Of a stretch of 64,000 nucleotides of DNA, positions 7,822 to 56,877 are shown piece after piece. Numbering within the stretch: position 1 is the first letter of the stretch; every line of letters begins with the position of its first letter. Position numbers and translations under genes: made by a program. Source of the DNA: Candidatus Woesearchaeota archaeon (GTDB taxonomy: Archaea; Nanobdellota; Nanobdellia; Pacearchaeales; GW2011-AR1); NCBI GenBank assembly GCA_964516745.1, contig CAZEYD010000001.1, positions 303,309 through 367,308 of the forward strand. Reading direction: 5' to 3'. The notes under the pieces were generated by a model. The model was not told where the DNA came from. It did no database searches and saw only the letters and a list, made by a program, of their open reading frames with translations.

Positions 7822-10800
7822 TTACTTATCTCTCGCCTTTTCTATCTCATTTACAAACAAACTATTGCCTCTCTCCTTACTCTCATTATACCTACCGCTA
7901 ACAATAACACCATCACCATCATTTAATTCCAAAAACACTTTAAAGTCTTCAAATACTTTAGGAAAAACAACACAATCGCAATAACTACTTCTATTTCCAA
8001 TCGTCATAAATGCCATATCTTCTCCCTTTTTCGTTCTAATTTTTCTAAAGCTCTTAATGATTCCAAACAAACTAATTTCCTCACCACCTTTTAAATCACT
8101 ATAAGAATTTAAGATATCAGATTTGGATTCAACATACAAATCAACAGGGTGACATGAAATACAAACTCCCATTAGCTCTTTTTCAAGTTCAATTTTATTC
8201 CTCAAACTCAACTCAGATTCAACAACCAATTCACCAGCGGAAGTACCACCAAACAAGGTTGTCTGCTTCCCAACGCTCGATCCATTTTTTTTCACCTTAT
8301 CATAGGTTGCAAGTAGTTCGCCACGCCCGATACCAAAATTGTCAAAGCACCCAACGCCTATTAAATTTTTCATTACTCTCTTATTAACCTTAGATAAATC
8401 AACACTATTAACAAAATTCTGAAACGAATCATATGGCCTTTTTCCTATAATAGAATCTGTAGCACCATGTCCAACATTTTTGATACCAGATAAACCAAAT
8501 CTAATAAATTTCCTACCAGCGATACTTTCTACGTTAAAATCCTCCAAAGAAGAATTTATCTCGGGACCTAATATGTTAATTTTCATTTTTCTTGCCTCCT
8601 CCAAATAGAAACTCATCTTCTCAGGATCATTAGTATTAGAGGAAATGGTAGCCGTCATAAATTCAACAGGATAATATCTTTTTAGATAAGCAGTTCTATA
8701 GGCGATCAAAGCATAAGCAGCAGCATGACTCTTATTAAAAGAATATGATGCAAATTTCACAATGTCGTCCCACAAATTATCAATATCTTTTTGTTCCATT
8801 TTTGCAACATTTAAACATCCGTCCTTAAACTTCTTTTCTAGACTATTCATTAAATCTAAAATCTTTTTACCTATTGCTTTACGCAAAGTATCGGCTTCAG
8901 ACATCGTAAAGCCAGCTAACTTTTGAGCCAATTGCATAACTTGTTCCTGATAAACCATAATACCATAAGTGGGATCTAAGATTTCCTTCGCCCAAATATG
9001 AGGATAACTTACTTTCTCACGACCATGTTTCCTATCACCATAAACTTGTAAATATTGCATTGGACCCGGGCGATATAAAGCAACAATCGCAATAATATCA
9101 TTAAAATTTGTCGGAACAACAGACTTCAATGTCTTCTGCATACCACTACTTTCTAACTGAAAAACACCAACGCTATCACCATCACCCAACATTTCATACA
9201 CGGCTTTATCATCTAAAGGGATTTCCTCTAACCATTTAGTATCCTTACCAATAAAATCCAAAATCTTCTTCGTAATATTTAAGGTCTCTAATCCTAAAAA
9301 ATCAAACTTAACCAGTCCCCTGTCCTCGATTTCATGACCATCTGTTTGAGTAACGATAAAACCATCTTTCTCACTAACAGGAACGTACTCAGTTATAGCC
9401 TCCTTTCCCCATACAACACCACAGGCATGGATTCCTTTATGACGAACTCCTCCCTCTAGCCTTAAAGCAATATCAAATATTTCAAAATATTCTTCTCTAA
9501 ATTTAATTAATTTATCATTAATTAATTTCCCAGATTCATTTTTTAATTCTAAACTCTTCTGGATTGTTTTTTCGGTAACATAATTAGTTACCTCGTTCGC
9601 AATATTAAATGGAATCTTAAACACTCTCATAACATCTTTCAAAACTGATTTTGCACTCATCGTTCCATAAGTTCCAATCAAAGCAATCTTATCATGCCCA
9701 TATTTCTCTTTCACATAATTTACAACAACGTCTTTATCACCAAAATCTATATCAAAATCAGGCAAACTAATTCTATCAGGATTTAAAAACCGTTCAAACA
9801 AAAGACCAAGATGCAAGGGTTCTAACTGGGTAATTCCTAATAAATATGCAACAATGCTACCAGCTCCACTACCACGACCAGGTCCAACTTGACATTGAGT
9901 CTTAGCATAAGCAACAAAATCTTGAACAATTAAAAAATAAGTAGAAAAATTCATTTTCTCTATAACAGACAACTCATATTTTAGTCTTGATTTCGCTTCA
10001 TCATACAAAACATTTCCACCATAAACCTCTTCCAATTTTTTGGAACACAATTTGTTTAAATATTCATCATGATCCATATTGCCTGGGGCATCATATTTTG
10101 GCCAAATTGTCTCACCAAATTTCCAATCAACATTACATTTCTCTGCAATCTCAACACTATTAGAAACAGCATCTAACCTTTCACTAAAGCGTTCCTTCAT
10201 TTCTTCTTCGCTCATTATATAATACCCATCACCAGGAAATTGAAAATGTTTAGGGTCTTCCAAAGAACCATTTGTCTGAATACATAGCATAGTTTCGTGA
10301 GCCTTCTTATCTTCCTTTAATAAATAATGTGCATCACAAGCCGCAACTAATTTTAGCCCCATTTCATCAGCCCACCTATAATAAACATCTCTTACCTTTT
10401 TTTCCTCAGGAATATTATGATTATGAACTTCTAAATAAAAATCTTCTTTCCCAAAAATATCCAAATACTCTTTTAATTTTTCTTTGGCCAAATCCATATT
10501 GTCCCAAACAATAGCGGTAGCAATATCATTAGCAAGGCAGGCAGACATACAAATTAACCCTTCAGAATATTCCTTCAATATCTTTTTATCTATTCTTGGT
10601 CTATAATAAAATCCATTACAGGAAGCAATAGAATTCAGTTTTATTAAATTTTTCAATCCAATTTCATTTTTAGCAAGCAAAATAAGATGCGCTCGCTTTT
10701 CATCTTTATCTCTAACATTTAAATCCTTGACAATATAAGGCTCAACACCAAATATCAATTTAACGCCAGCTTTTTTTGCTACCTTATACTTATTTATAAT

Positions 10801-10935
10801 AGATTCCATATTCCCATGCTCGGTAATTGCGACAGAATTCATACCTAATTCTTTAACTCTCTCAAACAAATCAGAAACTTTTATTGCACCATCCAGAAAA
10901 CTATACTCAGTATGTAGATGTAAATGAACAAATCC
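7822..10935 (-). other. DnaE (C-family polymerase) module of the fusion ORF
   Basis: It begins GFVHLHLHTEYS (I checked the nucleotides at 10921-10935). The order is PHP, palm, thumb/fingers, an internal QTTLF motif, then an OB fold. No tau-binding tail is evident. Confidence 0.8.
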
Positions 10936-13900
10936 GTCATTGAGTTTTTTTTTATCTATCGATTTTGGTATTATATTTTTATTAACAATAACATTTTCTT
11001 CTTTTTGTTTCTCTTCTACAATTATAGGTTTCTCAATAACCAAAATTTCATCTCTTTTAACGTCTTCTTTAATCAATATATTTCCAGAATCTCTGCTCTC
11101 ATGATTAACAGATTCGTTCTTTTCAAATAAAGATAACTGTTTTTCTACCCCAAATATTTCTTCTATATAATCTTTCATTAAATATAAACAATCTTTTGTA
11201 TATTCTGAAATTTCATATTTATCCGCAAGTTCTAATGCAGAACCTAAATATTTTTTTATTGAACCATAAGAAACTGTTAAAAGAAGTTTGCTACCACACT
11301 TTCTACAAATTCCTGCTAATGGGGGTCTTCTATATTTTTGATTACAAGAAGAACATCTAAATTGCTGACGAAAAAACTTCTTTAAATTTCCTCCAATATC
11401 TTTCAAAAAGTGTTTTTCAATAATCATTTCTGCAACATTATCGCTATCAACAGCCCTAATTTTTTCCACTAATTGCATTTGCTTCTCTACCTTTTCCTTC
11501 ATTGTAGGCAAAGATTTGTAGGAACCATTAGTCACACCAATGTTAAAATCAAAGGTATTATGAGTAAATCCTAAACCACTAAATGTAGTAATTCCCTCTC
11601 TTAATCGTTTTTTAACATTATCACTATCAACTTTACTAGAATGCATTCTTTCCTCTGCTAACTCATATAATTCTAATGGATAGTTCCACGCAACATCATA
11701 CTCTAATATTTGATCGTCAACACCCCCTGCTTGAATTCTTCCATTAATAACTAAGGGTGCATCTTGGCTAGCCCCCCTGTGATTAGAAAGATAACTTTTA
11801 CTAAAATTTAAAAGAACATCCATTAACATCATAACAGCCATTTCATCTCCATCACAATCACGACGAATAGCAGCATGCATATATGGACTAGCCATAATTC
11901 CTTGAATATTACTAAAACCTATTATTCTACCAACAACTCCAGCACAATTATGAGGAGCCATACAAACAACCAATTGTCCAACTAAGTCCTCTTTTGTCTT
12001 TAAATTATATAGTTTCTCTTTATTGTAAATCTTCTCTAACTCTTCATCAATAAAATTGGCAATATTAAAAAAAACGTCATCGCCTTTTTCATCATGACTA
12101 TCAGAACATGCCGATAAAACAATATCGTGAGGTCTCAAATCTAAAATTTGATTTGCATCCTTTAGCTCTTTTCCATAAATGTCTTTATCATATCCTAACT
12201 CTATTAACTTTTCAACACTAACATTAATTTCATTTGGTTTAAAATGACTCAACGGAATTTCTATTCCATCATATCTAATTGTTCCATCTTTATTAACTAA
12301 TAGATTATACTTGGATCTCAATATTCCTTTTCCTATATACTCTACCTCACCATTTCCAGAACTAACATTATTAACTCCTTTGACTATTGAAGGGAAATTG
12401 TCTATATCATATCCTAATTTATCCATTGTTGTAAGAATATGTTCTTTAAGTTTTATTTCTCTAAACTGGCAACCATTTCCCCTATGCTCTAAACATTTTT
12501 CTTTATACGTTTTATTACATATCTCACAAAAAAAATTCCTTTCTATTTTTTTCCCACATTTATCACAAACAGAGTATATTGTAGAATTTCCACATTTACA
12601 TTCGTATAAAGGAAACATTCCTTTAAACATAGATTTACTTGCCTCAAATACATTTCTTTGTCTTCCCCCTTTATCATAAACAGGAAATAGCCCATTTGGA
12701 CTTCCTTCCTGTTTTCGTAATTTTGCTTTTTCAGGACGTCCCATTCTAGAACCAATAAAGTCACCCGCCTTATCTTTAATTGTAAATTCAGATAATTCAT
12801 TAATTAATTTTAAAACATCGTCACCATTACTAATTTTAGATTTTAATAAGCCTACTCTTTCCTTAACTAACCCATCCTCACTTATATCCCCTATTCCTAT
12901 ATTATAAAACAATGCTCTTGCCTTTTCCTTTTCTAAAACAACATTATCTAAAACAACATCATGATCAATACCAACTAACTCTAATGCCCTTTTTGCAACA
13001 GAAAATGTATTCTTAATCTCTTTTCCCCATGGCAACACAAACTTTTTATCGCTATCACCTCGCCACATTCCCTCTTCTAACCAGGAAAACAAGGCTAAAA
13101 GATTTTCTCTATTTATCTCTGTCCAATAAAAAATATATTTTGGATATAATGGAACAGAATATTTTATACTTATATTAACGGCCAAATCTATGTCAATTTT
13201 CCATTTATCATATTCAAGTATATCACCTGTCACCTCTAATTTTTTTTTGAGTTCTAAGTCCCACCATTCTTCTACATAACCTGATTTAACCAAATCAGAA
13301 TTTCTATCTCTAACATCACCTAATGAACATAACATATCGCCAAGATAAATTATTTCATAAACATCTTTACTTAACTCCATAGCTTTCTCATATTCGTGAA
13401 TTTGTTTTACACTACCATCTTTTAACTTAACGATTGGTCCTTCTAATACATCACAAGAGGTAATTATTGTTCCCTTAATCGGTTTTTCCAATTTTAATTG
13501 TGTACCTTGAGATAAAAATCCATCACTAATTCCCATCGTTGCGGGACTTATACTAACCGCACTAAACCCATTTGTTCTACTTTTTCCATAACGAAATCTA
13601 AAACCTCCGCTTCTAGATGGATGTCCATAAACTGGTCTTCCTGCAACTAAATCTTTTATATATGTTGCACCAACATCTCCTAAACCACTCTCTCTCTTGG
13701 AATGAATAACCAAATATTCTACAAGAAAATCCCAACCAGTACTCTTTATACCGTTCTTTTTAACATCATTTAATCGATGTAATCCCTTTGCTGCTTTCTG
13801 AGCAAGACCTTCAGCCAAAACCAAACAAACACCACCTCTAATTCTAGGAGTATGAACTCTCTCTATATCCTTAAAATTACTAACCTCCTGTAACTCTGTT

Positions 13901-14604
13901 GGATCTCCATCTATCTGAATTGGTAAATTTTTCGATAAAAAAATCAGTTCCTCTTCTGTCGGCATATATTGTAAATTAGATACTTTATCATTATAATCAA
14001 CACATTCAATATAATATCTCTTAATTTCATCTTCTGTTGCAATATATTTAGCATAACCAAAATATTCTCGTAAATAGTCAACCAACATCAAAAAAACACA
14101 AGTAGCAGTTGTTCCAGCACTCCTAATCGGACCAGAAAATTTAACTCTAAAGTATTCAGATTTATCCCTGTTTTTATCTAAACTGATACCAGTATAACCT
14201 TCTAGTGGACTAGCAACAACTCCTAAAGTTAAATACGAAAAACCAACTCGCAAACCAGCATCAATTCCAATCATTTTATCTTCAAAACTACAAAATTTAT
14301 TCTTCGCTATTTCTCTAGCAATAATAAAACTAACAGTTGTATTTAATTGACCATATTTCTTTTCTAATTCTAATATTCTTTTAGATATCTCAGCAACTGG
14401 TAGTTGAGGATATACTATTGCAATTAAATTAACACATTTTTCAGCCATAGACATAGCTAAAGGTGTTTCAACTTGTTGCATAAAATCAAACCCATTTTTC
14501 TTAGCAGAATTTGCTATATCATAAATTTCTCTTATATTTTTGTTCATCAAATTAAAATATTCAGATTCATCCCAATATCCCATTTTGTTTATTTTTTCTT
14601 CCAT
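7822..14604 (-). CDS. Fusion protein: archaeal DNA polymerase D large subunit (DP2, aa 1 to ~1160), a K/E-rich linker, then a bacterial-type DNA polymerase III alpha subunit (DnaE, aa ~1222-2260)
   Basis: One uninterrupted 2260-codon frame. The DP2 part has GPIRSAGTTA, RSGGFRFRYGKSRT, Cys clusters CKCG..CDKCG and CSSCN..CRKCG, and the catalytic AIRRDCDGDEMAVMML. The DnaE part has PHP HLHLHTEYSFLDG, AITEHGN, GVEPY, AHLILLAKN, MSAC and CDAHY. It also has GPGRGSGAGS, the palm PDFDIDF and KFDFLGLETL, then GVFQLES, ALYRPGP, YQEQVMQ, FNKSHAAAYA and a C-terminal OB-fold-like segment. Confidence 0.85.
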   Translation of the reverse strand: MEEKINKMGYWDESEYFNLMNKNIREIYDIANSAKKNGFDFMQQVETPLAMSMAEKCVNLIAIVYPQLPVAEISKRILELEKKYGQLNTTVSFIIAREIAKNKFCSFEDKMIGIDAGLRVGFSYLTLGVVASPLEGYTGISLDKNRDKSEYFRVKFSGPIRSAGTTATCVFLMLVDYLREYFGYAKYIATEDEIKRYYIECVDYNDKVSNLQYMPTEEELIFLSKNLPIQIDGDPTELQEVSNFKDIERVHTPRIRGGVCLVLAEGLAQKAAKGLHRLNDVKKNGIKSTGWDFLVEYLVIHSKRESGLGDVGATYIKDLVAGRPVYGHPSRSGGFRFRYGKSRTNGFSAVSISPATMGISDGFLSQGTQLKLEKPIKGTIITSCDVLEGPIVKLKDGSVKQIHEYEKAMELSKDVYEIIYLGDMLCSLGDVRDRNSDLVKSGYVEEWWDLELKKKLEVTGDILEYDKWKIDIDLAVNISIKYSVPLYPKYIFYWTEINRENLLALFSWLEEGMWRGDSDKKFVLPWGKEIKNTFSVAKRALELVGIDHDVVLDNVVLEKEKARALFYNIGIGDISEDGLVKERVGLLKSKISNGDDVLKLINELSEFTIKDKAGDFIGSRMGRPEKAKLRKQEGSPNGLFPVYDKGGRQRNVFEASKSMFKGMFPLYECKCGNSTIYSVCDKCGKKIERNFFCEICNKTYKEKCLEHRGNGCQFREIKLKEHILTTMDKLGYDIDNFPSIVKGVNNVSSGNGEVEYIGKGILRSKYNLLVNKDGTIRYDGIEIPLSHFKPNEINVSVEKLIELGYDKDIYGKELKDANQILDLRPHDIVLSACSDSHDEKGDDVFFNIANFIDEELEKIYNKEKLYNLKTKEDLVGQLVVCMAPHNCAGVVGRIIGFSNIQGIMASPYMHAAIRRDCDGDEMAVMMLMDVLLNFSKSYLSNHRGASQDAPLVINGRIQAGGVDDQILEYDVAWNYPLELYELAEERMHSSKVDSDNVKKRLREGITTFSGLGFTHNTFDFNIGVTNGSYKSLPTMKEKVEKQMQLVEKIRAVDSDNVAEMIIEKHFLKDIGGNLKKFFRQQFRCSSCNQKYRRPPLAGICRKCGSKLLLTVSYGSIKKYLGSALELADKYEISEYTKDCLYLMKDYIEEIFGVEKQLSLFEKNESVNHESRDSGNILIKEDVKRDEILVIEKPIIVEEKQKEENVIVNKNIIPKSIDKKKLNDGFVHLHLHTEYSFLDGAIKVSDLFERVKELGMNSVAITEHGNMESIINKYKVAKKAGVKLIFGVEPYIVKDLNVRDKDEKRAHLILLAKNEIGLKNLIKLNSIASCNGFYYRPRIDKKILKEYSEGLICMSACLANDIATAIVWDNMDLAKEKLKEYLDIFGKEDFYLEVHNHNIPEEKKVRDVYYRWADEMGLKLVAACDAHYLLKEDKKAHETMLCIQTNGSLEDPKHFQFPGDGYYIMSEEEMKERFSERLDAVSNSVEIAEKCNVDWKFGETIWPKYDAPGNMDHDEYLNKLCSKKLEEVYGGNVLYDEAKSRLKYELSVIEKMNFSTYFLIVQDFVAYAKTQCQVGPGRGSGAGSIVAYLLGITQLEPLHLGLLFERFLNPDRISLPDFDIDFGDKDVVVNYVKEKYGHDKIALIGTYGTMSAKSVLKDVMRVFKIPFNIANEVTNYVTEKTIQKSLELKNESGKLINDKLIKFREEYFEIFDIALRLEGGVRHKGIHACGVVWGKEAITEYVPVSEKDGFIVTQTDGHEIEDRGLVKFDFLGLETLNITKKILDFIGKDTKWLEEIPLDDKAVYEMLGDGDSVGVFQLESSGMQKTLKSVVPTNFNDIIAIVALYRPGPMQYLQVYGDRKHGREKVSYPHIWAKEILDPTYGIMVYQEQVMQLAQKLAGFTMSEADTLRKAIGKKILDLMNSLEKKFKDGCLNVAKMEQKDIDNLWDDIVKFASYSFNKSHAAAYALIAYRTAYLKRYYPVEFMTATISSNTNDPEKMSFYLEEARKMKINILGPEINSSLEDFNVESIAGRKFIRFGLSGIKNVGHGATDSIIGKRPYDSFQNFVNSVDLSKVNKRVMKNLIGVGCFDNFGIGRGELLATYDKVKKNGSSVGKQTTLFGGTSAGELVVESELSLRNKIELEKELMGVCISCHPVDLYVESKSDILNSYSDLKGGEEISLFGIIKSFRKIRTKKGEDMAFMTIGNRSSYCDCVVFPKVFEDFKVFLELNDGDGVIVSGRYNESKERGNSLFVNEIEKARDK
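10936..11121 (-). other. Low-complexity K/E/I/V-rich linker between the DP2 and DnaE modules
   Basis: KNESVNHESRDSGNILIKEDVKRDEILVIEKPIIVEEKQKEENVIVNKNIIPKSIDKKKLND. It contains no stop codon and no Met. Confidence 0.7.
11122..14604 (-). other. DP2 (PolD large subunit) module of the fusion ORF
   Basis: Covers aa 1 to ~1161. It ends with ...DYIEEIFGVEKQLSLFE, where QLSLF lies at nt 11125-11139. Confidence 0.8.
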
Positions 14605-14713: not shown

Positions 14714-16285
14714 TTAATCATTCATTTTACAACAAATATTATCATCCTTTATCCATTTCACTTGCTTACTATCATCACTAAAATCTAAAACTTTTATCTC
14801 TCTTGTTCTTAAATTTAACAATGGTACTTTACACGGATCCGAAAGAATCCCTTTCTTATCTAAATAATTTGTATTATTCATCCAACAAGAACCATTGATT
14901 AACAAGATATTTTCTTTCATTTCTATTTCACATCTATGTAAATTTCCAGTAAATATAATATCAGGTATCGGTTCTATTATTGATAAATCTTTTTCCTCTG
15001 GTATAATATCTACACTACCATACATTGGAGATAATTGTTTTATTCTTAGCAACTCTTTAATTATATTGTTCGGAGAGGAAAATCCAGATTTATTTCGAAT
15101 ATTTGGCATTTCATTCGTTAAATTATAAATATTTGTACCATGATATAATAATATATTAATTTTATTTTCTATTTTAACCCAAGATGGATTTTCTAAAAAC
15201 GTTATATTATTTCTAGCATCTAATTCCTTAAACCATTTATTTTCTATTCTACTCTGTGGTTCACCTCTCCATACTGCATCTCTATCTCCAGATGTAACCA
15301 GTATATTAAGATCTTTTCTAAACAATTTAAATAGTTCTTGAACTTTTTCATATTGTTTGGTTATGTTTTTTATTTTAAGATCTTTTTCTTGATTTACATA
15401 ATGTCCAATCCCATCAACTAAATTTCCTCCAATAAATAAATATTTTATGTTTTTAGAAATTTCTGAATAAATATTTTTCTCTTTTCCATTTATCCATTTT
15501 ATAAATTTGAGGAAGTTTTTCTCCATAAAATTAACAGAACCACAATGTAAATCACTAATAAATGCAACCCAGCAATCATTCTCTGTTTTTACTATTCTAT
15601 TATTTTTTACTTCAGGAAAAATTATATCATTACAAAAAAACATTTCGCTAGAACAACTTCCTCTAAAAACTAAAACACTATCCATCAAAATTTGACTAGC
15701 TTGTTCATATAATTTATTTTTGTTCTTATTTATTAGCAAATTTATACTACCTGTCATATCTTCTACCTCTAAAATTATATTTTTGTTTTTTGTTATCCTT
15801 TTACTAAATACAGAACCTATTATTGTAAAACTACTATTTTTACTTATTTTTCTTATACTTGTTATATCACTATACTCTTTTTCTAACAAAAAATCTTTTA
15901 TTATATTATATTTTCTTCTAAAACTATTAATAAAATCGTTAACTGTAAATATTTTAGGTTTATGTTCTTTCTCCTTTATTACTTGAATTGTGTTAAATTC
16001 TTCTTTTTTATTAATATTTTCTGTCTTTTTCTTTTCATTTAGTTCTAAAAAAAATGCATCAACACTATCATTAAGACCTCCATTCATAATTTTTTTGATA
16101 TTTTTGATGTTATCAGAAAATATTTTTCTAGTAATTACCCGTTCTTTTAACTTTAAATTACCAATAATGTCTATTATTTCATTTATCTTATCTGATTCAA
16201 TCTTATTAAAAATATCTAACATTTCTTTGTCTAATAAAAACCCTTTCTTCATACACTCTTTTAATACTAAATTTACCATATTCAA
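14714..16285 (-). CDS. DNA polymerase D small subunit (DP1), with atypical phosphoesterase motifs
   Basis: OB region plus calcineurin-like phosphoesterase region: AFISDLHCGS, LFIGGNLVDGIG, VTSGDRDAVWRGEPQ, LLYHGTN and IFTGNLH. It lies directly upstream of DP2, as in other archaea. Confidence 0.85.
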   Translation of the reverse strand: MNMVNLVLKECMKKGFLLDKEMLDIFNKIESDKINEIIDIIGNLKLKERVITRKIFSDNIKNIKKIMNGGLNDSVDAFFLELNEKKKTENINKKEEFNTIQVIKEKEHKPKIFTVNDFINSFRRKYNIIKDFLLEKEYSDITSIRKISKNSSFTIIGSVFSKRITKNKNIILEVEDMTGSINLLINKNKNKLYEQASQILMDSVLVFRGSCSSEMFFCNDIIFPEVKNNRIVKTENDCWVAFISDLHCGSVNFMEKNFLKFIKWINGKEKNIYSEISKNIKYLFIGGNLVDGIGHYVNQEKDLKIKNITKQYEKVQELFKLFRKDLNILVTSGDRDAVWRGEPQSRIENKWFKELDARNNITFLENPSWVKIENKINILLYHGTNIYNLTNEMPNIRNKSGFSSPNNIIKELLRIKQLSPMYGSVDIIPEEKDLSIIEPIPDIIFTGNLHRCEIEMKENILLINGSCWMNNTNYLDKKGILSDPCKVPLLNLRTREIKVLDFSDDSKQVKWIKDDNICCKMND

Positions 16286-16334: not shown

Positions 16335-17549
16335 CTAAATACCCAACATTTCAATCAAACTAATCTCTATTTTTTTAAATATATTATTAGGAACACTTAA
16401 TTTAATATCCCTAGTTCTCCCATGCCTTCCTTTACTTATAACCTTAGCATTAATAATTCCCATCATATCTAAATCTGCTAATATATCACTAATTCTTCTT
16501 TGTGTTAGGCCATCTGTTTTTGTCTGTAAGCATAAATCCTGATATACATTATAAACATCACCTGTAAAAAACTTATCAATATTCTTCTCTTTTTGTTGTT
16601 TTGTTAATTGAACTATTGAATATAATACCAATTTATGTTGTTTTGGATATGTTTCAACTATATCTAATATTTTATCCTTTTCTATTTTTTGATTTGCAAA
16701 GTCAATATATTCTTCTTCTACTACAACCTTTGAATCTCTTTCTGATAATTCTCCCGCTATTCTTAATAAATCTAATGCTCTTCTTGCATCTCCATGCTCC
16801 CTAGCAGCATAGGCGGCACATTTTGCAATAACTCCATCACTAATAACATTTTTTTTGAATGCTAATTCGCACCTCTCATTTAATATGTCTCTCAATTGTA
16901 TTGCATTATATGGAGAAAATATAAATTCTTCTTCACCCAAACTACTTCTTACTCTTGGATCTATATTTTCTAAAAAAGTAACATCATTACTAATTCCTAT
17001 CAAGGATATTTGTGCATTAACTAACTCTTGATTAATCCTAGTCATAGTATATAAAAAATTATCACTCATTTTTTTAACAGCTTGATCTATCTCATCAAAA
17101 ATAAAAACTATTAATTGTTTCTTTTTATCGATAATTTCAAGAAACTTTGCCCAAACTTTATCTGTTGGTAATCCTGTTGCTGAAATTTCTCCACCCATTT
17201 TCTTTATCAGTGCTGCTAATATTCTATATTCTGTATCCGCAACCTTTCTTAATTTACAATTAAGATATTCAAATCTTACATCAACTCCTATTTCTTTTGA
17301 TTTTTCTGTTAATTGATTACAAACATATTCAACTGATAATGTTTTACCTGTTCCTGTTTTTCCATAAACAAACAAATTGCTCGGTGTTTCCCCTCTTAAT
17401 ATAGATGCCAATATTCCTGCTATGGATTTTATTTGTTTATCTCTGTGTGGAATATTATCAGGAGTATATCTAACTTGAAGTACTCCTTTGTTCTTAAATA
17501 AACTATTATTTACAGCACTTTCAAATATATCATTTAATTCAACTCCCAT
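16335..17549 (-). CDS. cdc6: Orc1/Cdc6 replication initiator
   Basis: Walker A GKTGTGKT, Walker B IFDEIDQ, sensor region and a C-terminal winged helix (GRHGRTRDIKL). It is adjacent to an AT-rich intergenic region. Confidence 0.9.
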   Translation of the reverse strand: MGVELNDIFESAVNNSLFKNKGVLQVRYTPDNIPHRDKQIKSIAGILASILRGETPSNLFVYGKTGTGKTLSVEYVCNQLTEKSKEIGVDVRFEYLNCKLRKVADTEYRILAALIKKMGGEISATGLPTDKVWAKFLEIIDKKKQLIVFIFDEIDQAVKKMSDNFLYTMTRINQELVNAQISLIGISNDVTFLENIDPRVRSSLGEEEFIFSPYNAIQLRDILNERCELAFKKNVISDGVIAKCAAYAAREHGDARRALDLLRIAGELSERDSKVVVEEEYIDFANQKIEKDKILDIVETYPKQHKLVLYSIVQLTKQQKEKNIDKFFTGDVYNVYQDLCLQTKTDGLTQRRISDILADLDMMGIINAKVISKGRHGRTRDIKLSVPNNIFKKIEISLIEMLGI

Positions 17550-17608
17550 CTTCTATTTTAAAACATATTAAAGTATTTAAATATGATATATCGGAAATTA
17601 TTATTATT

Positions 17609-17895
17609 ACCCCCTATTTCAAATGGAACTTATTTTATAGACTCTTTTTACTTAAAATATTTTAAAGACGAAGATTACTCTAAATTTTTATATCCCTCAC
17701 CCCATCATTTCCTTTCCAAAAGAAACTATCAACAATAATAATAATGGTAAATAATTATTCTAAAATATATATTCATTAATAACTATTACATTATACTATA
17801 TTATATTATATAAATACTTTTAAATAAAATTAATAAAATTAATAAATTAAATGTTTAAATATTTTATAATAAATCTCCAACAGAAATAGTAGGGT
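17609..17895. promoter_or_regulatory. Candidate replication origin (oriC): inverted ORB-like elements flanking an extremely AT-rich unwinding region
   Basis: The reverse complement of 17609-17629 reads GTTCCATTTGAAATAGGGGGT. The forward strand at 17874-17895 reads TCTCCAACAGAAATAGTAGGGT. The shared core is TCCAnnnGAAATAG..GGGT, in inverted orientation. A third mini-ORB-like TTCCAAAAGAAAC lies at 17714-17726. Positions ~17735-17872 are almost pure A/T. Confidence 0.55.
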
Positions 17896-18013
17896 CACAC
17901 CCATAACAAATAAAAATTATTTATTTGAATAAAATAATCAAATTAAAGTATACATACTAGAATATATTATTAAATACACAAACATTTATAAAATATTTTA
18001 ATTTATATCAAAT

Positions 18014-18268
18014 ATGGAAAAAAGATCATTCAAATCATTTTTAGGAAAACAGGTAGTAACTAAAGAAGGAAAAAAATTAGGATTAGTAAAAGATATTACA
18101 TTTGAATCAAGAACGGGTGAATTAATTCATTTAGTAATAAAAGATTTAACAACATATACAGCAAATCTTTCATTAGAAAAAACAAAAGAAAAAGAAGCCT
18201 TAGTTCCATATAATTCTGTAATTGCAGTAGGCGATTTTATTGTAGTTTCTGAAGAAGACTTAATGTAA
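18014..18268 (+). CDS. PRC-barrel domain protein
   Basis: FLGKQVVTKEGKKLGLVKDITFESRTGELIHLVI...VPYNSVIAVGDFIVV is the typical PRC-barrel pattern. Confidence 0.6.
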   Translation: MEKRSFKSFLGKQVVTKEGKKLGLVKDITFESRTGELIHLVIKDLTTYTANLSLEKTKEKEALVPYNSVIAVGDFIVVSEEDLM

Positions 18269-18312
18269 ACAAACATAATAAAACTTAAAAACCCTCAATA
18301 TTAAAAGATAAC

Positions 18313-45415: not shown

Positions 45416-45931
45416 ATGATAAATAGAAAAAACAAAAAAGGTGTCTCTGCAATTGTTGCAACAAGTCTTATAATTTTAATTACCGTAGCTGCTATATCAA
45501 TTGTATGGACGATAGTTTTACCAATGATTAGAGATAATCTTCAAGGTAGCCAAGCATGTATGGAAGCTGCTAGTTCTATAACTATAAGAACTAATACAGG
45601 ACAAACATGTTGGAACAAAACAAATTCCGGTACTGGCGATTATAATGGGACAGTCTTTGTTCAAATAGAAAGGTCCTCTGCCAATATTGATATAAGCTCA
45701 CTTAATTTAAGAGCTATTGACGCTAATGGTAATGCTCAAAACACAATATTGTCAACATCTAATGATACATTCTTTGGACCTGATGGTTTGGAGCCGGGTG
45801 ATGTATATGTGTATAGCGAAAACACAACAGAGATAATTGTTGCTTTTGAAATAGTTCCTGTTTTAACAGTAGGTACTCAAGAGTATTCATGTAACGACGC
45901 TGTCGCTGCTGCAGAAGTAGGTCTTTGTTAA
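45416..45931 (+). CDS. Archaeal type IV pilin (tandem paralog 1 of 3)
   Basis: MINRKNKKGVSAIVATSLIILITVAAISIVW is the archaeal pilin N-terminal domain pattern (KG then VS.IV). AGGGGGA RBS. The ORF-track TTG start at 45398 is less likely. Confidence 0.75.
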   Translation: MINRKNKKGVSAIVATSLIILITVAAISIVWTIVLPMIRDNLQGSQACMEAASSITIRTNTGQTCWNKTNSGTGDYNGTVFVQIERSSANIDISSLNLRAIDANGNAQNTILSTSNDTFFGPDGLEPGDVYVYSENTTEIIVAFEIVPVLTVGTQEYSCNDAVAAAEVGLC

Positions 45932-46037: not shown

Positions 46038-46553
46038 ATGATAAATAGAAAAAACAAAAAAGGTGTTTCTGCAATTGTTGCAACGAGTCTTATAATTCTA
46101 ATTACTGTAGCTGCTATATCAATTGTATGGACAATAGTCTTACCTATGATAAAAGGGAATCTTCAGAATAGCCAAGTTTGTTCAAATGTTGTAGGCTCTA
46201 TAACTATAAGGACCAACACAGGTCAAACATGTTGGAACAAAACAAATACAGACCCTGATGATACAACTGGAACAGTATTCGTTCAGATAGAAAGGTCCTC
46301 TGCCAATATAATATTGACTTCACTTAACTTAAGAGCTATTGACGCCAGCGGAAATGCTGAAAACATAATAATAAAAACAGATAACGAAACAATTTTTGGA
46401 GTTGATGGTATAGAGCCAGGTGATGTATATGTATATAACCAAAGCACAAAAAAAGAGATTGTATCTTTCGAAATAATTCCCGTTATAACTATAGGAACTC
46501 AAGAATATTCATGTAAAGAAGCTGTATCTTCCGCAGAAGTAAGTATTTGCTAA
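46038..46553 (+). CDS. Archaeal type IV pilin (tandem paralog 2 of 3)
   Basis: Its first ~38 aa are near-identical to paralog 1. It has the conserved C-terminal TIGTQEYSC..AV.SAEV..C. Confidence 0.75.
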   Translation: MINRKNKKGVSAIVATSLIILITVAAISIVWTIVLPMIKGNLQNSQVCSNVVGSITIRTNTGQTCWNKTNTDPDDTTGTVFVQIERSSANIILTSLNLRAIDASGNAENIIIKTDNETIFGVDGIEPGDVYVYNQSTKKEIVSFEIIPVITIGTQEYSCKEAVSSAEVSIC

Positions 46554-46624: not shown

Positions 46625-47134
46625 ATGATAAATAGAAAAAACAAAAAAGGTGTTTCCGCAATTGTTGCGACGAGTCTTATAATTCTAATTACTGTAGCTG
46701 CTATATCAATTGTATGGACAGTAGTTTTGCCAATGATAAGAAATAGTCTTCAAAGTAGTCAAGCATGTATGGAGGCTGCTAGCGCTATAACCATAAGAAC
46801 TAGTACAGGAAAAACATGTTGGAGTGACGGTAATAGAAAAGTATATGTTCAGATAGAGAGGTCATCTGCTAATATCGATATAACTTCGCTTAATTTAAAA
46901 GCTATTGACGCTAATGGTAATGCCCAAAACGAAAACATAGAAACAACCAATGTAACAGCCTTTGGGGTTGGTGGTTTAGGCCCAGGAGACGTTTATACAT
47001 ACAATCAGACTGCAGTTCTTAAAATTGTCACCTTCGAAATAATTCCTGTCATAACCATTGGGACACAAGAATATTCGTGCAATGACGCTGTCGCTTCCGC
47101 AGAAGTTGGCATATGTCCATCTCTCGGTGCTTAA
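46625..47134 (+). CDS. Archaeal type IV pilin (tandem paralog 3 of 3)
   Basis: It shares the conserved N- and C-termini of paralogs 1 and 2, with a variable middle. Confidence 0.75.
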   Translation: MINRKNKKGVSAIVATSLIILITVAAISIVWTVVLPMIRNSLQSSQACMEAASAITIRTSTGKTCWSDGNRKVYVQIERSSANIDITSLNLKAIDANGNAQNENIETTNVTAFGVGGLGPGDVYTYNQTAVLKIVTFEIIPVITIGTQEYSCNDAVASAEVGICPSLGA

Positions 47135-47768: not shown

Positions 47769-49298
47769 ATGGAAAAGATAAAAATAAACCTAAATCCAAT
47801 AGTTCCCTCTATTCAAAAGTTCGAAGATAAAGCTCAAATAAATGTAAGATATATGGTAATCTCCCCATATGTATCAATCCATATTTATTGGGATTCACAA
47901 ATATCAGAAGTTATATATGAGGTAGAGGAACCGATTCTAGACCAAAAGGAAACTGAACTATTAAGTAAAATAGAACTGTCGCTAAGAGAAACAGTGAATT
48001 TCAATATAAGCGAAGAAAATCAGACAAAGGAATCTCTAATAAATTATATTGAAGACAATTCTAGATCAACCATATCAGAGCTAGGTATAAAATCAAGCGA
48101 AGAATCATTCAGGAAAATATTTTATTATCTTTACAGAGATTTTATCGGACTCAATGAAATAGAGGCATTTATGAGAGATTATTTTATAGAAGATATTGAG
48201 TGTAATGGAGCGGGAGAACAGATATACATAGTTCATCGTGTATTTAGGAATGTTAAAACAAATGTAAAGTTTAAATCTATAGAGCCTTTGTCTAATTTTG
48301 TAGAGAAATTGGCACAAAAAACAGGTCGATATATTTCATATGCGTCACCAATATTAGATGGAAGTTTACCAGATGGGAGCAGAGTTAACGCAACATACAC
48401 CAAAGATATAACAAGCAAAGGACCAACATTCACAATAAGGAAATTTACAAAAGTTCCTTGGACACCAATTCAGTTATTAGGATTTAATTCAATAAGCCCA
48501 GAAATGTTAGCATATTTCTGGTTGGCCCTTCAGTATAATGCAAATATAATGATAGTAGGAGGAACAGCATCAGGAAAAACAACTTTATTGAATGCAATAG
48601 CATTTTTCATATCTCCTGAAAAAAGAGTTGTTTCAATTGAGGATACTAGAGAATTGAATCTACCGAGAGAAAACTGGTTACCAAGTGTAGTAAGGTCGGG
48701 AATGTCTAACAGTGGTGTAGGTGAGGTAGATATGTTTAGTTTACTAAAGGGCTCATTTAGACAAAATCCAGATTATGTTATTGTTGGTGAAGTAAGAGGG
48801 AAAGAAGCCTCTGTTTTGTTTCAAGGTATGGCATCAGGTCATTCTTCCATCTCGACACTCCATGCAGACTCAGTTCAAGCAATCGTTAATAGATTATCGA
48901 CGCCACCAATTAGTTTGAGTCCAACACTAATAAATACTTTAGATTTTGTAGCCATTCAAACTCATGCAGTTGTTAACGGTCACGAAACTCGTCGACTTAG
49001 AGAAATAGTCGAAATTACACAAGTCAATCCAGATGGAACATTTCAGACAAATACCCCATTTCAGTGGAATCCAGCAGATGATAAGTTCTACTTTCAAAGT
49101 CAAAGCCAATTATTCACGAAGATATCGGAAAAAAACGGAATTTCGATGGAGCAATTAATAAAAGAATATGAAACAAGAAAGAAAGTATTATACGCACTAT
49201 ATAATCAGAAAATATTAGGATATGATGAAGTCCAAAGAGTAATAAATGAATATTCTAAAAATCCAGCCCCAATCTTAACTAGACTAGGAATATCCTAA
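47769..49298 (+). CDS. Type IV pilus/archaellum-family secretion ATPase (FlaI/PilB/VirB11-like)
   Basis: Walker A GGTASGKTTLLNA, LPDGSRVNATY, Walker B-like VIVGEVRGKEA and His-box SGHSSISTLHA. Confidence 0.85.
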   Translation: MEKIKINLNPIVPSIQKFEDKAQINVRYMVISPYVSIHIYWDSQISEVIYEVEEPILDQKETELLSKIELSLRETVNFNISEENQTKESLINYIEDNSRSTISELGIKSSEESFRKIFYYLYRDFIGLNEIEAFMRDYFIEDIECNGAGEQIYIVHRVFRNVKTNVKFKSIEPLSNFVEKLAQKTGRYISYASPILDGSLPDGSRVNATYTKDITSKGPTFTIRKFTKVPWTPIQLLGFNSISPEMLAYFWLALQYNANIMIVGGTASGKTTLLNAIAFFISPEKRVVSIEDTRELNLPRENWLPSVVRSGMSNSGVGEVDMFSLLKGSFRQNPDYVIVGEVRGKEASVLFQGMASGHSSISTLHADSVQAIVNRLSTPPISLSPTLINTLDFVAIQTHAVVNGHETRRLREIVEITQVNPDGTFQTNTPFQWNPADDKFYFQSQSQLFTKISEKNGISMEQLIKEYETRKKVLYALYNQKILGYDEVQRVINEYSKNPAPILTRLGIS

Positions 49299-56283: not shown

Positions 56284-56877
56284 ATGTTAAAAATATTAGC
56301 AGCAGCAGATCTTCATGGTGATAGATCAATAGCAGAAAGATTATCTAAAAAGGCACTGAAAAACAATATTGAATTGATAATACTCGCTGGAGATATTTTC
56401 GGAGCATTAAAAGAAACAGATGCTTCTATTTTGAATCCCTTCGTAGAAAACAATCAAAAAGTATCTTTTGTTTTGGGCAATTGGGAATCAATAGATGAAA
56501 CAAATTTACTAAAACAACAATCTAATGCAAAAAACCTAGAAAATTATTATATAACTTATAACAATGTAGGAATAGCAGGAATTGGGCATGGTAATTGGAA
56601 ATTAGTATCAGATGAAATTGGGTTTCAAAATGTGAAGAGAAATTTTGAAAGAATGGAACCATCCAAAAAGATATTAGTTTCTCATAATCATGCAGAAGGT
56701 AGTAAGGCTGAGTTCTCAGGGTTTAGGGGAGATAAAATATTAAGAAAAGCAGTTGATATATTGCAACCAGATATTTTAATATCTGCCCATATTCACGAAG
56801 CCGAGGGTATAGAAGAAAAAATCGGCAAAACCAAAATCATTCAAGTAGGACGAAAAGGGACAATAATTGAATTATAA
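56284..56877 (+). CDS. Calcineurin-like metallophosphoesterase
   Basis: AAADLHGD, LAGDIFG, GNWES, SHNHAEG and SAHIHEAEG. Confidence 0.75.
   Translation: MLKILAAADLHGDRSIAERLSKKALKNNIELIILAGDIFGALKETDASILNPFVENNQKVSFVLGNWESIDETNLLKQQSNAKNLENYYITYNNVGIAGIGHGNWKLVSDEIGFQNVKRNFERMEPSKKILVSHNHAEGSKAEFSGFRGDKILRKAVDILQPDILISAHIHEAEGIEEKIGKTKIIQVGRKGTIIEL

What the first reader, a model, noticed from the sequence alone, without database searches (positions are those of the whole stretch)
14714..16285. DP1 (PolD proofreading subunit) has substituted phosphoesterase motifs while the fused DnaE keeps a complete PHP metal-site set
From memory, canonical DP1 motifs read SD(V/I)HxGS, GD-VDG, GNHD, HG and GH-H. 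Here they read SDLHCGS (kept), GGNLVDG (GD to GN), SGDRDA (GNH to GDR), YHG (kept) and TGNLH (GHxH to GNLH). Three of the metal or catalytic positions of the Mre11-like 3'-5' exonuclease are therefore changed, which suggests a weakened or dead proofreader. In the fusion ORF, the nine PHP positions associated with active PHP exonucleases all appear present (HxH, D, H, E, H, C, DxH). They are seen in HLHLH..LDG, EHGN, GVE, AHL, SAC and CDAH. The inference is that proofreading has moved from DP1 to the DnaE PHP domain.
Basis: inference. Interest (0 to 1): 0.7.

Follow-up and report, generated by a model that had tools for sequence, protein, structure and literature searches.

The report
PolD–DnaE fusion with decayed DP1 proofreader
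In a small group of tiny (DPANN) archaea, the archaeal replicase PolD is fused to a bacterial-type polymerase that has its own intact proofreading site. Only in these organisms has PolD's usual proofreading subunit repeatedly lost its key catalytic residue, much as happened long ago in the matching subunit of eukaryotic polymerases.

Summary
Aligned to Pyrococcus abyssi DP1 structures (E=2e-59), the window's DP1 differs at four of eight active-site positions. These are D404N, N450D, H451R (H451A is the standard exonuclease-dead mutant) and H560N.

Two changes (N450, H560) fall at positions that already vary in this lineage. H451R and D404N are the telling ones. D404N occurs in none of about 350 other DP1 sequences.

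The neighbouring 2260-aa ORF is a genuine DP2::DnaE fusion. It keeps intact catalytic motifs for DP2 and for PolIIIα, and all nine PHP metal ligands.

The fusion occurs on nine independent contigs. Of eight fusion-linked DP1 proteins recovered, seven have lost the catalytic His (Arg in five, Asn in two), probably in three separate events. All roughly 190 unfused relatives keep it. These include the nearest syntenic sisters and genomes with a separate dnaE gene next to DP2.

An unbiased column scan puts the catalytic His and residues beside the exonuclease channel among the most deviant conserved columns. Otherwise DP1 stays conserved and is predicted to fold well.

I found no paper describing the fusion or the DP1 decay. 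Only the dnaE–PolD adjacency in Pacearchaeota has been reported.

The parts
14714..16279 (-). DP1 (PolD small subunit), 521 aa from the ATG. It has an N-terminal helical domain, an OB fold and a Mre11-like phosphoesterase (PDE) domain with a degraded active site.
   Evidence: Pfam. PDB phmmer E=2e-59. AlphaFold model pLDDT 87, best PDB matches P. abyssi DP1 at TM 0.81-0.91. Start codon chosen from alignment A1.
15536..15556 (-). PDE motif I, SDLHCGS. D245 and H247 correspond to P. abyssi D360 and H362 and are retained.
15410..15430 (-). PDE motif II, GGNLVDG. N288 replaces metal ligand D404 (codon GAT->AAT). The change is unique to this window.
15275..15292 (-). PDE motif III, SGDRDA. D334 replaces ligand N450. 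R335 (codon AGA) replaces the catalytic His H451.
   Evidence: PMC10721889
15137..15145 (-). PDE motif IV, YHG. H382 corresponds to H497 and is retained.
14936..14950 (-). PDE motifs V/VI, TGNLH. N448 replaces H560, a position that varies in this lineage. H450 corresponds to H562 and is retained.
7822..14604 (-). DP2::DnaE fusion ORF, 2260 aa: the PolD large subunit joined in frame to a PolIIIα-type C-family polymerase.
   Evidence: Pfam domains. Identical protein on a 371-kb public contig and 7 further fusion clusters. Nine independent contigs.
11155..14604 (-). DP2 part (aa 1-1150). The catalytic RRDCDGDE (P. abyssi D956/D958) lies at nt 11842-11865. Zn-III and the C-terminal helices are retained. 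The former C-terminal PIP box survives as EKQLSLFE (nt 11122-11145) without its aromatic pair.
10939..11154 (-). Low-complexity, charged linker of about 70 aa between DP2 and DnaE. Among the fusions its length varies from about 45 to 170 aa and its sequence is not conserved.
10324..10926 (-). PHP domain of DnaE with all nine metal ligands: H1229, H1231, D1238, H1263, E1288, H1306, C1356, D1424, H1426.
   Evidence: PMC5636811
7837..10065 (-). PolIIIα polymerase core with catalytic PDFDIDF (nt 9742-9762) and KFDFLGL (nt 9289-9309), then the fingers, (HhH)2 and OB fold. The clamp-type motif KQTTLFG lies at nt 8245-8271. There is no τ-binding C-terminal domain.
16335..17549 (-). Orc1/Cdc6 gene directly upstream. 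The order Orc1/Cdc6 - DP1 - DP2(::DnaE) is conserved in every related locus.

Best explanation
This is the replicase operon (orc1/cdc6 - DP1 - DP2::DnaE) of a Pacearchaeota/Nanoarchaeota-type DPANN archaeon.

Its lineage had already acquired a bacterial-type DnaE (PolIIIα) that lacks the τ-binding domain and has a complete PHP exonuclease site. In a small clade this dnaE became fused in frame to the 3' end of DP2. One polypeptide then carries two intact polymerase active sites, D-family and C-family, plus the PHP exonuclease.

Once the two were tethered, the Mre11-like exonuclease of DP1 was no longer under selection. Its general-acid His (P. abyssi H451) was replaced at least twice, probably three times. 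Ligand positions N450 and H560 and residues beside the exo channel drifted. In this window the metal ligand D404 also became Asn.

DP1 itself is kept under purifying selection as a folded, non-catalytic adaptor. It would bind the DP2 C-terminus and, through its conserved N-terminal domain, the replisome, as eukaryotic B subunits do. Proofreading for the complex is then done by the PHP domain.

Shown: the substitutions, the fusion, the intact motifs, and the strict co-occurrence.
Inferred: loss of DP1 activity, activity of the PHP site, and the causal link.
For: **Active-site mapping.** Mapping to solved P. abyssi DP1 is unambiguous. Residue roles come from PMC10721889 and PMC4996933.

**Catalytic His by fusion state.** Residues are listed in the order D360, H362, D404, N450, H451, H497, H560, H562.
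- Fusion-linked DP1: window DHNDRHNH, L004 DHDSRHSH, L006 DHDNRHHH, L089 DHDERHHH, L008 DHDTRHNH, L001 DHDSNHNH, L002 DHDNNHNH, L005 DHDQHHNH.
- All 82 unfused metagenome loci and 115 unfused protein-database hits have His at H451.

**Controls that separate fusion from DnaE presence.**
- L090/L091/L120 have dnaE starting 1 nt after the DP2 stop, and L094 has dnaE downstream. All keep His.
- L176 shares the window's synteny and L173 shares that of the second fusion clade. Both have unfused DP2 and keep His.

**Independent losses.**
- DnaE parts of the fusions are monophyletic (100% bootstrap).
- Clade A (window, L004, L006, L089) is all Arg (99-100%). In the other clade L005 is His, L001/L002 are Asn and L008 is Arg.
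- Fused branches make up 6.8% of the DP1 tree length. The chance that 3 losses all fall there is about 3e-4; for 2 losses it is about 5e-3.

**Unbiased scan of 67 columns that are >=95% conserved in 188 unfused DP1.** The most deviant columns in fusion-linked DP1 are:
- H451 (7 of 8)
- P594 (7 of 8)
- K588 (6 of 8)
- P413 (5 of 8)

The last three flank the exo-channel residues V593, F586 and Y412 named in PMC10721889.

**DP1 is retained.** The PDE domain as a whole is only slightly faster-evolving than expected from DP2 divergence. The model has pLDDT 87 and a DP1 fold.

**The rest of the enzyme is intact.**
- PHP 9/9 and polymerase Asp triad in 8 of 8 fusions.
- DP2 RRDCDGDE in 8 of 8.
- A nine-ligand PHP site is an active Zn-dependent proofreader in M. 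tuberculosis DnaE1. Its D23N and D226N mutants kill the activity, and E. coli with 5 of 9 altered has none (PMC5636811).

**Precedents.**
- mre11-D56N and mre11-H125N abolish nuclease activity but not complex formation (PMC2625443).
- Archaeal DP1 inactivation where the partner polymerase brings its own exonuclease was proposed for Aenigmarchaeota and Heimdallarchaeota (PMC7544198).
Against: - No biochemistry exists for any of these proteins.
- Five of the seven metal ligands (D360, H362, D404, H497, H562) are still conserved in the fusion-linked DP1 proteins, except D404N here. The site may therefore still bind metal and keep some altered or residual activity.
- One fusion (L005) still has the full lineage-typical site, so fusion does not force loss.
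- Free-standing archaeal DnaE has the same 9/9 PHP set, yet DP1 stays intact there. PHP presence alone therefore does not explain the loss.
- It is unknown whether PHP can reach a primer end made by DP2. It may instead edit only DnaE's own products.
- Deep nodes of the DP2 and DP1 trees are poorly resolved (bootstraps 21-58%). The number of fusion and loss events is therefore uncertain. The trees are simple neighbour-joining trees.
- One distant DP1 (P0476) of unknown context also reads GDRDAV.
- The DP1 next to fusion P0005 could not be retrieved.
Confidence: 0.62

Rival explanations
1. Division of labour like Pol α. After the fusion DnaE became the bulk replicase and proofreads only its own products with PHP. 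The DP2-DP1 module is kept mainly as an anchor to the archaeal replisome (PCNA, GINS/CMG, primase), and perhaps to extend primers briefly before an intramolecular hand-off. DP1's exonuclease decays because DP2 makes little DNA, not because PHP edits DP2's errors.
For: - DP1's N-terminal domain, OB fold and the DP2 C-terminal Zn-III and helices are all conserved.
- The DP2 C-terminal PIP box lost its aromatic pair in all 9 fusions. DnaE keeps a clamp-type KQxTLFG motif.
- Eukaryotic Pol α has an inactive B subunit and no proofreading (established knowledge; PMC7544198).
- Structural matches after DP1 are eukaryotic B subunits.
Against: - The DP2 catalytic RRDCDGDE and overall DP2 conservation are fully maintained in all fusions. 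DP2 therefore still polymerises something.
- Sequence alone cannot tell which polymerase does the bulk synthesis.
- This rival shares the main conclusions with the best explanation: DP1 is dead and PHP is the only proofreader.
Confidence: 0.3
2. DP1 is still an active nuclease with a modified mechanism. Arg or Asn at the His position, plus the retained ligands, would support hydrolysis, perhaps with altered substrate or metal preference. No transfer of proofreading would have occurred.
For: - D360, H362, H497 and H562 are invariant, and D404 nearly so, across fusion-linked DP1 proteins despite 40-60% overall divergence.
- Some calcineurin-like phosphoesterase families lack the motif III His (from memory, not tested here).
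- The PDE domain is not evolving like a pseudogene.
Against: - H451A abolishes PolD exonuclease activity (PMC10721889, PMC4996933).
- The corresponding Mre11 H125N and D56N alleles lack nuclease activity (PMC2625443).
- The His is replaced by two chemically different residues (Arg, Asn). Neighbouring ligand N450 became D, S, N, T or E. This looks like relaxation rather than one new catalytic solution.
- Conserved residues flanking the exo channel are also lost.
- The window adds D404N.
Confidence: 0.12
3. Coincidence or general decay. DPANN genomes are reduced and fast-evolving. DP1 proofreading was lost for reasons unrelated to the fusion, such as tolerance of a mutator state, and happens to map to the same small clade.
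For: - All cases lie in one neighbourhood of the tree, so phylogenetic non-independence inflates the raw association (Fisher p=4e-12).
- One distant DP1 of unknown context also lost the His (P0476).
Against: - The closest unfused sisters of both fusion clades, with identical synteny, keep the His.
- Losses are probably three independent events, all on fused branches that hold 6.8% of tree length (p about 3e-4).
- About 190 other DPANN DP1 proteins, equally reduced, keep it.
Confidence: 0.08

Closest known systems
Archaeal PolD (DP1-DP2) of Pyrococcus abyssi / Thermococcus kodakarensis (PDB 5IHE, 6HMS, 6T8H, 8PPT, 6KNB)
   Same: Both subunits are clear homologues (DP1 E=2e-59, DP2 E=3e-223). 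They share the same domain order, the same DP2 catalytic DxD, the same Zn-III and C-terminal DP1-binding region, and the same DP1 fold (TM 0.81-0.91).
   Different: - The DP1 catalytic His and three ligand positions are changed here.
- DP2 carries a whole C-family polymerase at its C-terminus.
- The C-terminal PIP box has lost its aromatic anchor.
Bacterial DnaE1 with an active PHP exonuclease (M. tuberculosis DnaE1, Thermus PolIIIα; PDB 5LEW/7PU7, 2HPI)
   Same: PHP - Pol3 core - fingers - (HhH)2 - OB architecture. All nine PHP ligands, the catalytic Asp triad and a QxxLF-type clamp motif sit at the same positions (37-42% identity to bacterial DnaE).
   Different: - Found in archaea.
- No τ-binding C-terminal domain.
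- Forms its own clade, 55-66% identical among Pacearchaeota and at most 42% identical to bacterial or phage copies.
- Here it is covalently joined to DP2.
Inactivated DP1 / B subunits: eukaryotic Pol α/δ/ε/ζ B subunits, and inactive DP1 of Aenigmarchaeota, Heimdallarchaeota B3/LC3 and some Nitrososphaeria (Kazlauskas et al. 2020, PMC7544198)
   Same: A DP1-family subunit is kept as a structural partner. Its phosphoesterase site decays when the catalytic partner brings its own exonuclease.
   Different: - In those cases the partner is a B-family polymerase with a DnaQ-like exonuclease, and DP2's polymerase part is gone.
- Here DP2 is intact, the incoming polymerase is C-family and the exonuclease is a PHP domain.
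- The decay is recent and partial: five of seven ligands are still present.
- The decay can be followed across sister lineages.
Pacearchaeota dnaE next to PolD genes (Castelle et al. 2021, PMC8204110)
   Same: The same gene neighbourhood and the same DnaE family. That paper reported PolIII genes of two Pacearchaeota located next to the small and large PolD subunit genes.
   Different: The passages I retrieved by term search describe separate genes. They mention neither an in-frame DP2::DnaE fusion nor changes in DP1.

Membership tests
PolD small subunit DP1 (active proofreading exonuclease) | DP1 sequence and fold: OB domain plus calcineurin/Mre11-like PDE domain, homologous to solved DP1 | tested here: met
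   phmmer E=2e-59 to 5IHE/6T8H. Pfam PF04042 and PF00149. AlphaFold model TM 0.81-0.91 to P. abyssi DP1.
PolD small subunit DP1 (active proofreading exonuclease) | Catalytic His of motif III (P. abyssi H451), essential for exonuclease activity | tested here: not met
   Arg335 (codon AGA) occupies the aligned column. H451A is the exo- variant (PMC10721889).
PolD small subunit DP1 (active proofreading exonuclease) | Seven metal ligands D360, H362, D404, N450, H497, H560, H562 | tested here: not met
   Four are kept (D245, H247, H382, H450). D404->N288, N450->D334 and H560->N448 are changed. The last two positions vary in the lineage; D404N is unique.
PolD small subunit DP1 (active proofreading exonuclease) | Measured 3'-5' exonuclease activity | not testable with these tools
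   Requires recombinant protein.
PolD large subunit DP2 (D-family polymerase) | DP2 N-terminal, central and catalytic domains with the catalytic Asp pair (D956/D958) and the C-terminal Zn-III | tested here: met
   Pfam PF03833, PF24844 and PF24846 at E<=1e-74. E=3e-223 to 6T8H_B with RRDCDGDE aligned.
DnaE-type PolIIIα (C-family polymerase) | PHP - Pol3 α core - fingers - (HhH)2 - OB architecture with catalytic Asp triad | tested here: met
   Pfam PF02811, PF07733, PF17657, PF14579 and PF01336. E=1e-220 to 2HPI. PDFDIDF and KFDFLGL conserved.
DnaE-type PolIIIα (C-family polymerase) | C-terminal τ-binding domain of typical DnaE1 | tested here: not met
   The protein ends just after the OB fold. 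The alignment to Taq and M. tuberculosis DnaE stops around residues 1090 and 1070 of 1220 and 1184. The same holds for free-standing archaeal copies.
PHP-domain proofreading exonuclease (M. tuberculosis DnaE1 / Thermus type) | Nine conserved ligands of the trinuclear Zn centre | tested here: met
   H,H,D,H,E,H,C,D,H at the aligned columns in the window, in 8 of 8 fusions and in all full-length free archaeal DnaE. Definition from PMC5636811 and PMC3919608.
PHP-domain proofreading exonuclease (M. tuberculosis DnaE1 / Thermus type) | Demonstrated Zn-dependent 3'-5' exonuclease activity | not testable with these tools
   Requires an assay.
Inactive B-subunit-like DP1 (eukaryotic B subunits, Aenigmarchaeota-type DP1) | PDE active site disrupted while the fold and the partner-binding role are retained | tested here: inconclusive
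   The catalytic His and up to three ligands are lost, and the fold is retained. However, most ligands are still present, and binding to DP2 is only inferred from conservation of the DP2 C-terminal region.

The most novel reading that the evidence does not exclude
A natural single-chain 'hybrid replicase'. An archaeal D-family polymerase and a bacterial-type C-family polymerase work in one polypeptide at the same fork. There would be intramolecular primer hand-off and one shared PHP proofreader. The DP1 subunit is caught in the act of turning into a eukaryote-like inactive B subunit. It would be a living model for how replicative polymerases and their proofreaders are swapped during evolution.
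Probability: 0.4. Interest if true: 0.9.

Novelty: new variant of a known kind. Interest (0 to 1): 0.72.

Why it matters
Replicative polymerases of Bacteria (C-family) and Archaea (D-family) are unrelated, and how one replicase displaces another is an old open question.

Here both sit in one protein. The archaeal proofreading subunit has repeatedly lost its catalytic residue only where the two are fused. Close unfused sisters serve as natural controls.

This repeats, on a recent and traceable timescale, the inactivation of the DP1-derived B subunit in eukaryotic polymerases. It also yields a directly testable system: express DP1 plus DP2::DnaE and knock out each active site in turn.

It also shows that C-family polymerases with a PHP proofreader are a regular part of the replication gene set in one archaeal order.

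Tried and rejected
- **GTDB genome scan with the DnaE part.** Only bacterial loci at 37-42% identity came back, with no archaeal locus and no taxonomy for the clade.
- **Metagenome scan with the DP1 alignment.** It gave 80 DP1 loci but no new fusion. They served as unfused controls.
- **DP1 next to fusion P0005.** The DNA was not retrievable because the sample file is too large.
- **Arg codon usage.** AGA, AGG and CGA do not discriminate one from several His->Arg events.
- **First bootstrap attempt with Biopython.** It timed out and was replaced by a numpy neighbour-joining routine.
- **Phage origin of the DnaE.** Phage-collection hits are at most 41% identical, no closer than bacteria.
- **Artefact explanations rejected.** A frameshift or assembly chimera is excluded because nine independent assemblies carry the in-frame fusion with different linkers. 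A pseudogene is excluded because the ORFs are intact, the PDE domain is conserved and the model is confident.
- **Intein explanation rejected.** Related DP2 proteins have inteins (PF14890/PF14528), but the DnaE part is C-terminal, complete and has no splicing motifs in Pfam.
- **Literature searches.** Searches for a DP2/PolD-DnaE fusion found none.
Full report
**What is at the coordinates.**
The minus strand carries three consecutive genes. They are orc1/cdc6 (16335-17549), a 523-codon ORF (14714-16285) and a 2260-codon ORF (7822-14604).

Pfam identifies the middle ORF as a DP1/B-subunit protein with an OB fold and a calcineurin-like phosphoesterase domain. It identifies the long ORF as DP2 (N-terminal, central and catalytic domains, aa 1-1038). 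These are followed by PHP, PolIIIα core, fingers, (HhH)2 and OB domains (aa 1227-2256).

The rest of the window is an ordinary AT-rich (about 30% GC) archaeal chromosome. It encodes EF-1β, a HIT protein, prepilin peptidase, an S-layer protein, pilins, ribosomal proteins, topoisomerase IA, a RadA/RadB paralogue, ScpA, a Xer-type recombinase and two tRNAs. The best database relatives are labelled Pacearchaeota or Nanoarchaeota.

**Checking the observation.**
phmmer aligns the DP1 to the solved P. abyssi DP1 (5IHE, 6HMF, 6T8H and others) at E=2e-59 over residues 113-503. Betancurt-Anzola et al. (PMC10721889) list the two-metal site as D360, H362, D404, N450, H497, H560 and H562, with H451 as the catalytically essential residue. 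H451A is the exo- variant, and PDB 6HMF shows it in the alignment.

| P. abyssi residue | Window residue | Status |
|---|---|---|
| D360 | D245 | kept |
| H362 | H247 | kept |
| D404 | N288 | changed |
| N450 | D334 | changed |
| H451 | R335 | changed |
| H497 | H382 | kept |
| H560 | N448 | changed |
| H562 | H450 | kept |

The likely start codon is the ATG at 16279.

**How unusual the substitutions are.**
- Among the 120 closest DP1 homologues, N450 is Q in 98 and H560 is D in 104. Those two changes are lineage noise.
- H451 is His in 115 of these 120, and the five exceptions are the query's nearest relatives. D404 is Asp in 120 of 120.
- Among 150 representatives of DP1 diversity (28-48% identity, searched against 1.84 billion cluster representatives), the canonical DHDNHHHH pattern occurs 110 times.
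- In that set H451 is His in 145 of 149 and D404 is Asp in 148 of 148.

**The fusion is real and recurrent.**
The identical 2260-aa protein lies on a 371-kb public contig. Seven further clusters (62-78% identity) have the same DP2+DnaE domain set.

I retrieved eight fusion contigs from different samples, plus a ninth (L089) in which the DP2 ORF runs into FVHLHLHTEY at the contig end. The linker differs in length (about 45-170 aa) and in sequence, while both flanking modules are conserved.

All the full-length fusion proteins (8 of 8) keep the following:
- the DP2 catalytic RRDCDGDE, corresponding to P. abyssi D956/D958 (PMC4996933);
- the Zn-III finger and the C-terminal helices;
- the PolIIIα Asp triad;
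- all nine PHP ligands.

**The DnaE family.**
The DnaE part is 55-66% identical to about 120 free-standing proteins of roughly 1040 aa from Pacearchaeota/Nanoarchaeota MAGs. These have the same truncated architecture (no τ-binding domain), the same 9/9 PHP site and the same KQ[ML]TLFG clamp-type motif. Bacterial and phage-collection DnaE are at most 42% identical.

Castelle et al. 2021 already noted PolIII genes next to the PolD genes in two Pacearchaeota (PMC8204110). Timinskas et al. regarded C-family polymerases as essentially confined to bacteria (PMC3919608). I found no paper that mentions a DP2::DnaE fusion.

**The key comparative result.**
I extracted the DP1 gene next to each fusion and next to unfused DP2 genes. 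Active-site strings follow the order D360, H362, D404, N450, H451, H497, H560, H562.

| Fusion-linked DP1 | Active-site string |
|---|---|
| window | DHNDRHNH |
| L004 | DHDSRHSH |
| L006 | DHDNRHHH |
| L089 | DHDERHHH |
| L008 | DHDTRHNH |
| L001 | DHDSNHNH |
| L002 | DHDNNHNH |
| L005 | DHDQHHNH |

Seven of eight have lost the catalytic His. All 82 unfused loci from the metagenome scan have His.

The informative controls are these:
- L090/L091/L120: dnaE starts one nucleotide after the DP2 stop (TAA T ATG). DP1 reads GQHDA.
- L094: dnaE lies a few hundred bases downstream. His is kept.
- L176: gene order is identical to the window (Orc1 - DP1 - DP2 - aS21 - EF1β - HIT - A24 peptidase) but DP2 is unfused. 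His is kept.
- L173/L174: gene order is identical to the second fusion clade, with DP2 unfused and ending in a canonical PIP box. His is kept.

The loss therefore tracks the covalent fusion, not the presence of DnaE.

**Number of events.**
- Neighbour-joining trees with 100 bootstraps put the fused DnaE parts in one clade (100%).
- Clade A (window, L004, L006, L089; all Arg) has 99-100% support.
- The other fusions are L005 (His), L001/L002 (Asn), and L008 (Arg, grouping with P0005).
- In the DP1 tree the two groups of fusion-linked DP1 are each sister to unfused, His-bearing DP1 proteins.
- Deep nodes are weak (21-58%). Either there were two fusions, or there was one fusion with secondary losses.
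- Both scenarios require about three independent replacements of the His, all on fused branches.
- Those branches hold 6.8% of the DP1 tree length, giving about 3e-4 for three events and 5e-3 for two.
- The raw Fisher test (7 of 8 against 0 of 188, p=4e-12) is not corrected for phylogeny.

**Is the decay specific to the exonuclease?**
I scanned the 67 columns that are at least 95% conserved in 188 unfused DP1 proteins. The columns that deviate most in the fusion-linked set are:
- the catalytic His (7 of 8);
- P594 (7 of 8);
- K588 (6 of 8);
- P413 (5 of 8), all in P. abyssi numbering.

By my hand mapping through the alignment, the last three lie next to V593, F586 and Y412. PMC10721889 describes these as lining the exo channel and holding the -1 and -2 bases.

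By contrast, identity across the whole PDE domain is only slightly below what DP2 divergence predicts (residual -0.02 to -0.06). The N-terminal domain and OB fold are conserved. An AlphaFold model is confident (pLDDT 87) and superposes on P. abyssi DP1 at TM 0.81-0.91, with eukaryotic B subunits as the next matches. DP1 is thus retained as a folded subunit while its exonuclease features drift.

**Interpretation.**
DP1's Mre11-like exonuclease is dead or badly crippled in these organisms, most thoroughly in this window, where it carries both H451R and D404N.

Yeast mre11-H125N and mre11-D56N have no nuclease activity yet still form the complex (PMC2625443). From memory, not tested here, H125 is the motif III His and D56 the motif II Asp, so they would match H451 and D404.

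The only complete proofreading site left in the complex is the PHP trinuclear-metal site. In M. tuberculosis DnaE1 this site is the replicative proofreader and is killed by D23N or D226N (PMC5636811).

Sequence cannot say whether PHP edits primer ends made by DP2. The alternative is that DnaE has become the main polymerase while DP2-DP1 acts as an anchor or primer extender, as with Pol α. I keep that as the main rival on mechanism.

Caveats:
- No activity has been measured.
- Most metal ligands are still conserved, so residual or altered activity is possible.
- One fusion (L005) retains the full lineage-typical site.
- One distant DP1 of unknown context (P0476) also reads GDRDAV.

**Relation to what is known.**
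Inactive DP1-family subunits are known from eukaryotic B subunits. Kazlauskas et al. 2020 also reported them from Aenigmarchaeota, Heimdallarchaeota B3/LC3 and some Nitrososphaeria. They proposed that inactivation was afforded by partner PolBs with their own exonuclease (PMC7544198).

The present case follows the same logic with different parts: a C-family polymerase, a PHP exonuclease, an intact DP2 and a covalent fusion. It is recent enough that intermediate states and unfused sisters are available. I classify it as a new variant of a known kind.

Noticed in passing
window 11122-11145 (aa 1154-1161 of the fusion); loci L001-L008, L089 compared with L093-L176: Unfused DP2 proteins of this lineage mostly end in a canonical C-terminal PIP box KQxxLxxWF* (26 of 37). 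All nine fusions keep Q..L but have lost the aromatic pair (window EKQLSLFE). The DP2 PCNA anchor therefore seems to decay once it is no longer C-terminal.
   Followed up: partly
window 8245-8271 (aa 2112-2120 of the fusion); P0242-P0361: Every archaeal DnaE, fused or free, carries KQ[ML]TLFG at the position of the bacterial β-clamp-binding motif, and none has the τ-binding C-terminal domain. Whether it binds PCNA or a bacterial-type clamp is unknown.
   Followed up: partly
proteins P0013, P0016, P0019, P0022, P0024, P0031, P0061, P0087 (NT5C) and P0058 (HD): Sister Pacearchaeota have DP2 fused at the C-terminus to a 5'(3')-deoxyribonucleotidase (PF06941) or an HD-domain (PF01966) module. The DP2 C-terminus looks like a hot-spot for domain fusions in this order.
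   Followed up: no
L090 9960-10040 (also L091, L120): DP2 stop codon and dnaE start codon are one nucleotide apart (TAA T ATG, different frames). This unfused neighbour arrangement could become the fusion through a small indel. DP1 there keeps the catalytic His.
   Followed up: yes
L176 3737-7243: In an unfused relative with the window's synteny, DP2 is split into two ORFs (694 + 468 aa) inside a zinc-finger region. This may be a genuine split gene or a sequencing error.
   Followed up: no
protein P0476 (from the representatives search): A distant DP1 (at most 40% identical to anything else retrieved) also reads GDRDAV at motif III (N450D, H451R). This is an apparently independent loss of the catalytic His. 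Its genomic context could not be fetched.
   Followed up: partly
proteins P0290 and P0346: Some free-standing Pacearchaeota DnaE genes carry inteins (PF14890/PF14528), as do most unfused DP2 genes of the lineage. The fusion proteins have no intein domains.
   Followed up: no
window 45416-45931, 46038-46553, 46625-47134 (+): Three tandem ORFs of 169-171 aa share an identical pilin-like N-terminus (MINRKNKKGVSAIVATSLIILITVA). They lie upstream of a T2SSE/PilB-type ATPase (47769-49298) and are probably a triplicated archaeal type IV pilin gene.
   Followed up: no
window 17550-18312: A roughly 760-nt, very AT-rich intergenic region lies next to orc1/cdc6 and contains many short AT-rich inverted repeats. 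It is a candidate replication origin. No clear ORB-like repeat family was found.
   Followed up: partly
window 56284-56877 (+): A small stand-alone calcineurin-like metallophosphoesterase (197 aa, Pfam Metallophos E=1e-14) lies just upstream of topoisomerase IA (56918-59104). Its function is unknown and it has no evident link to PolD.
   Followed up: no
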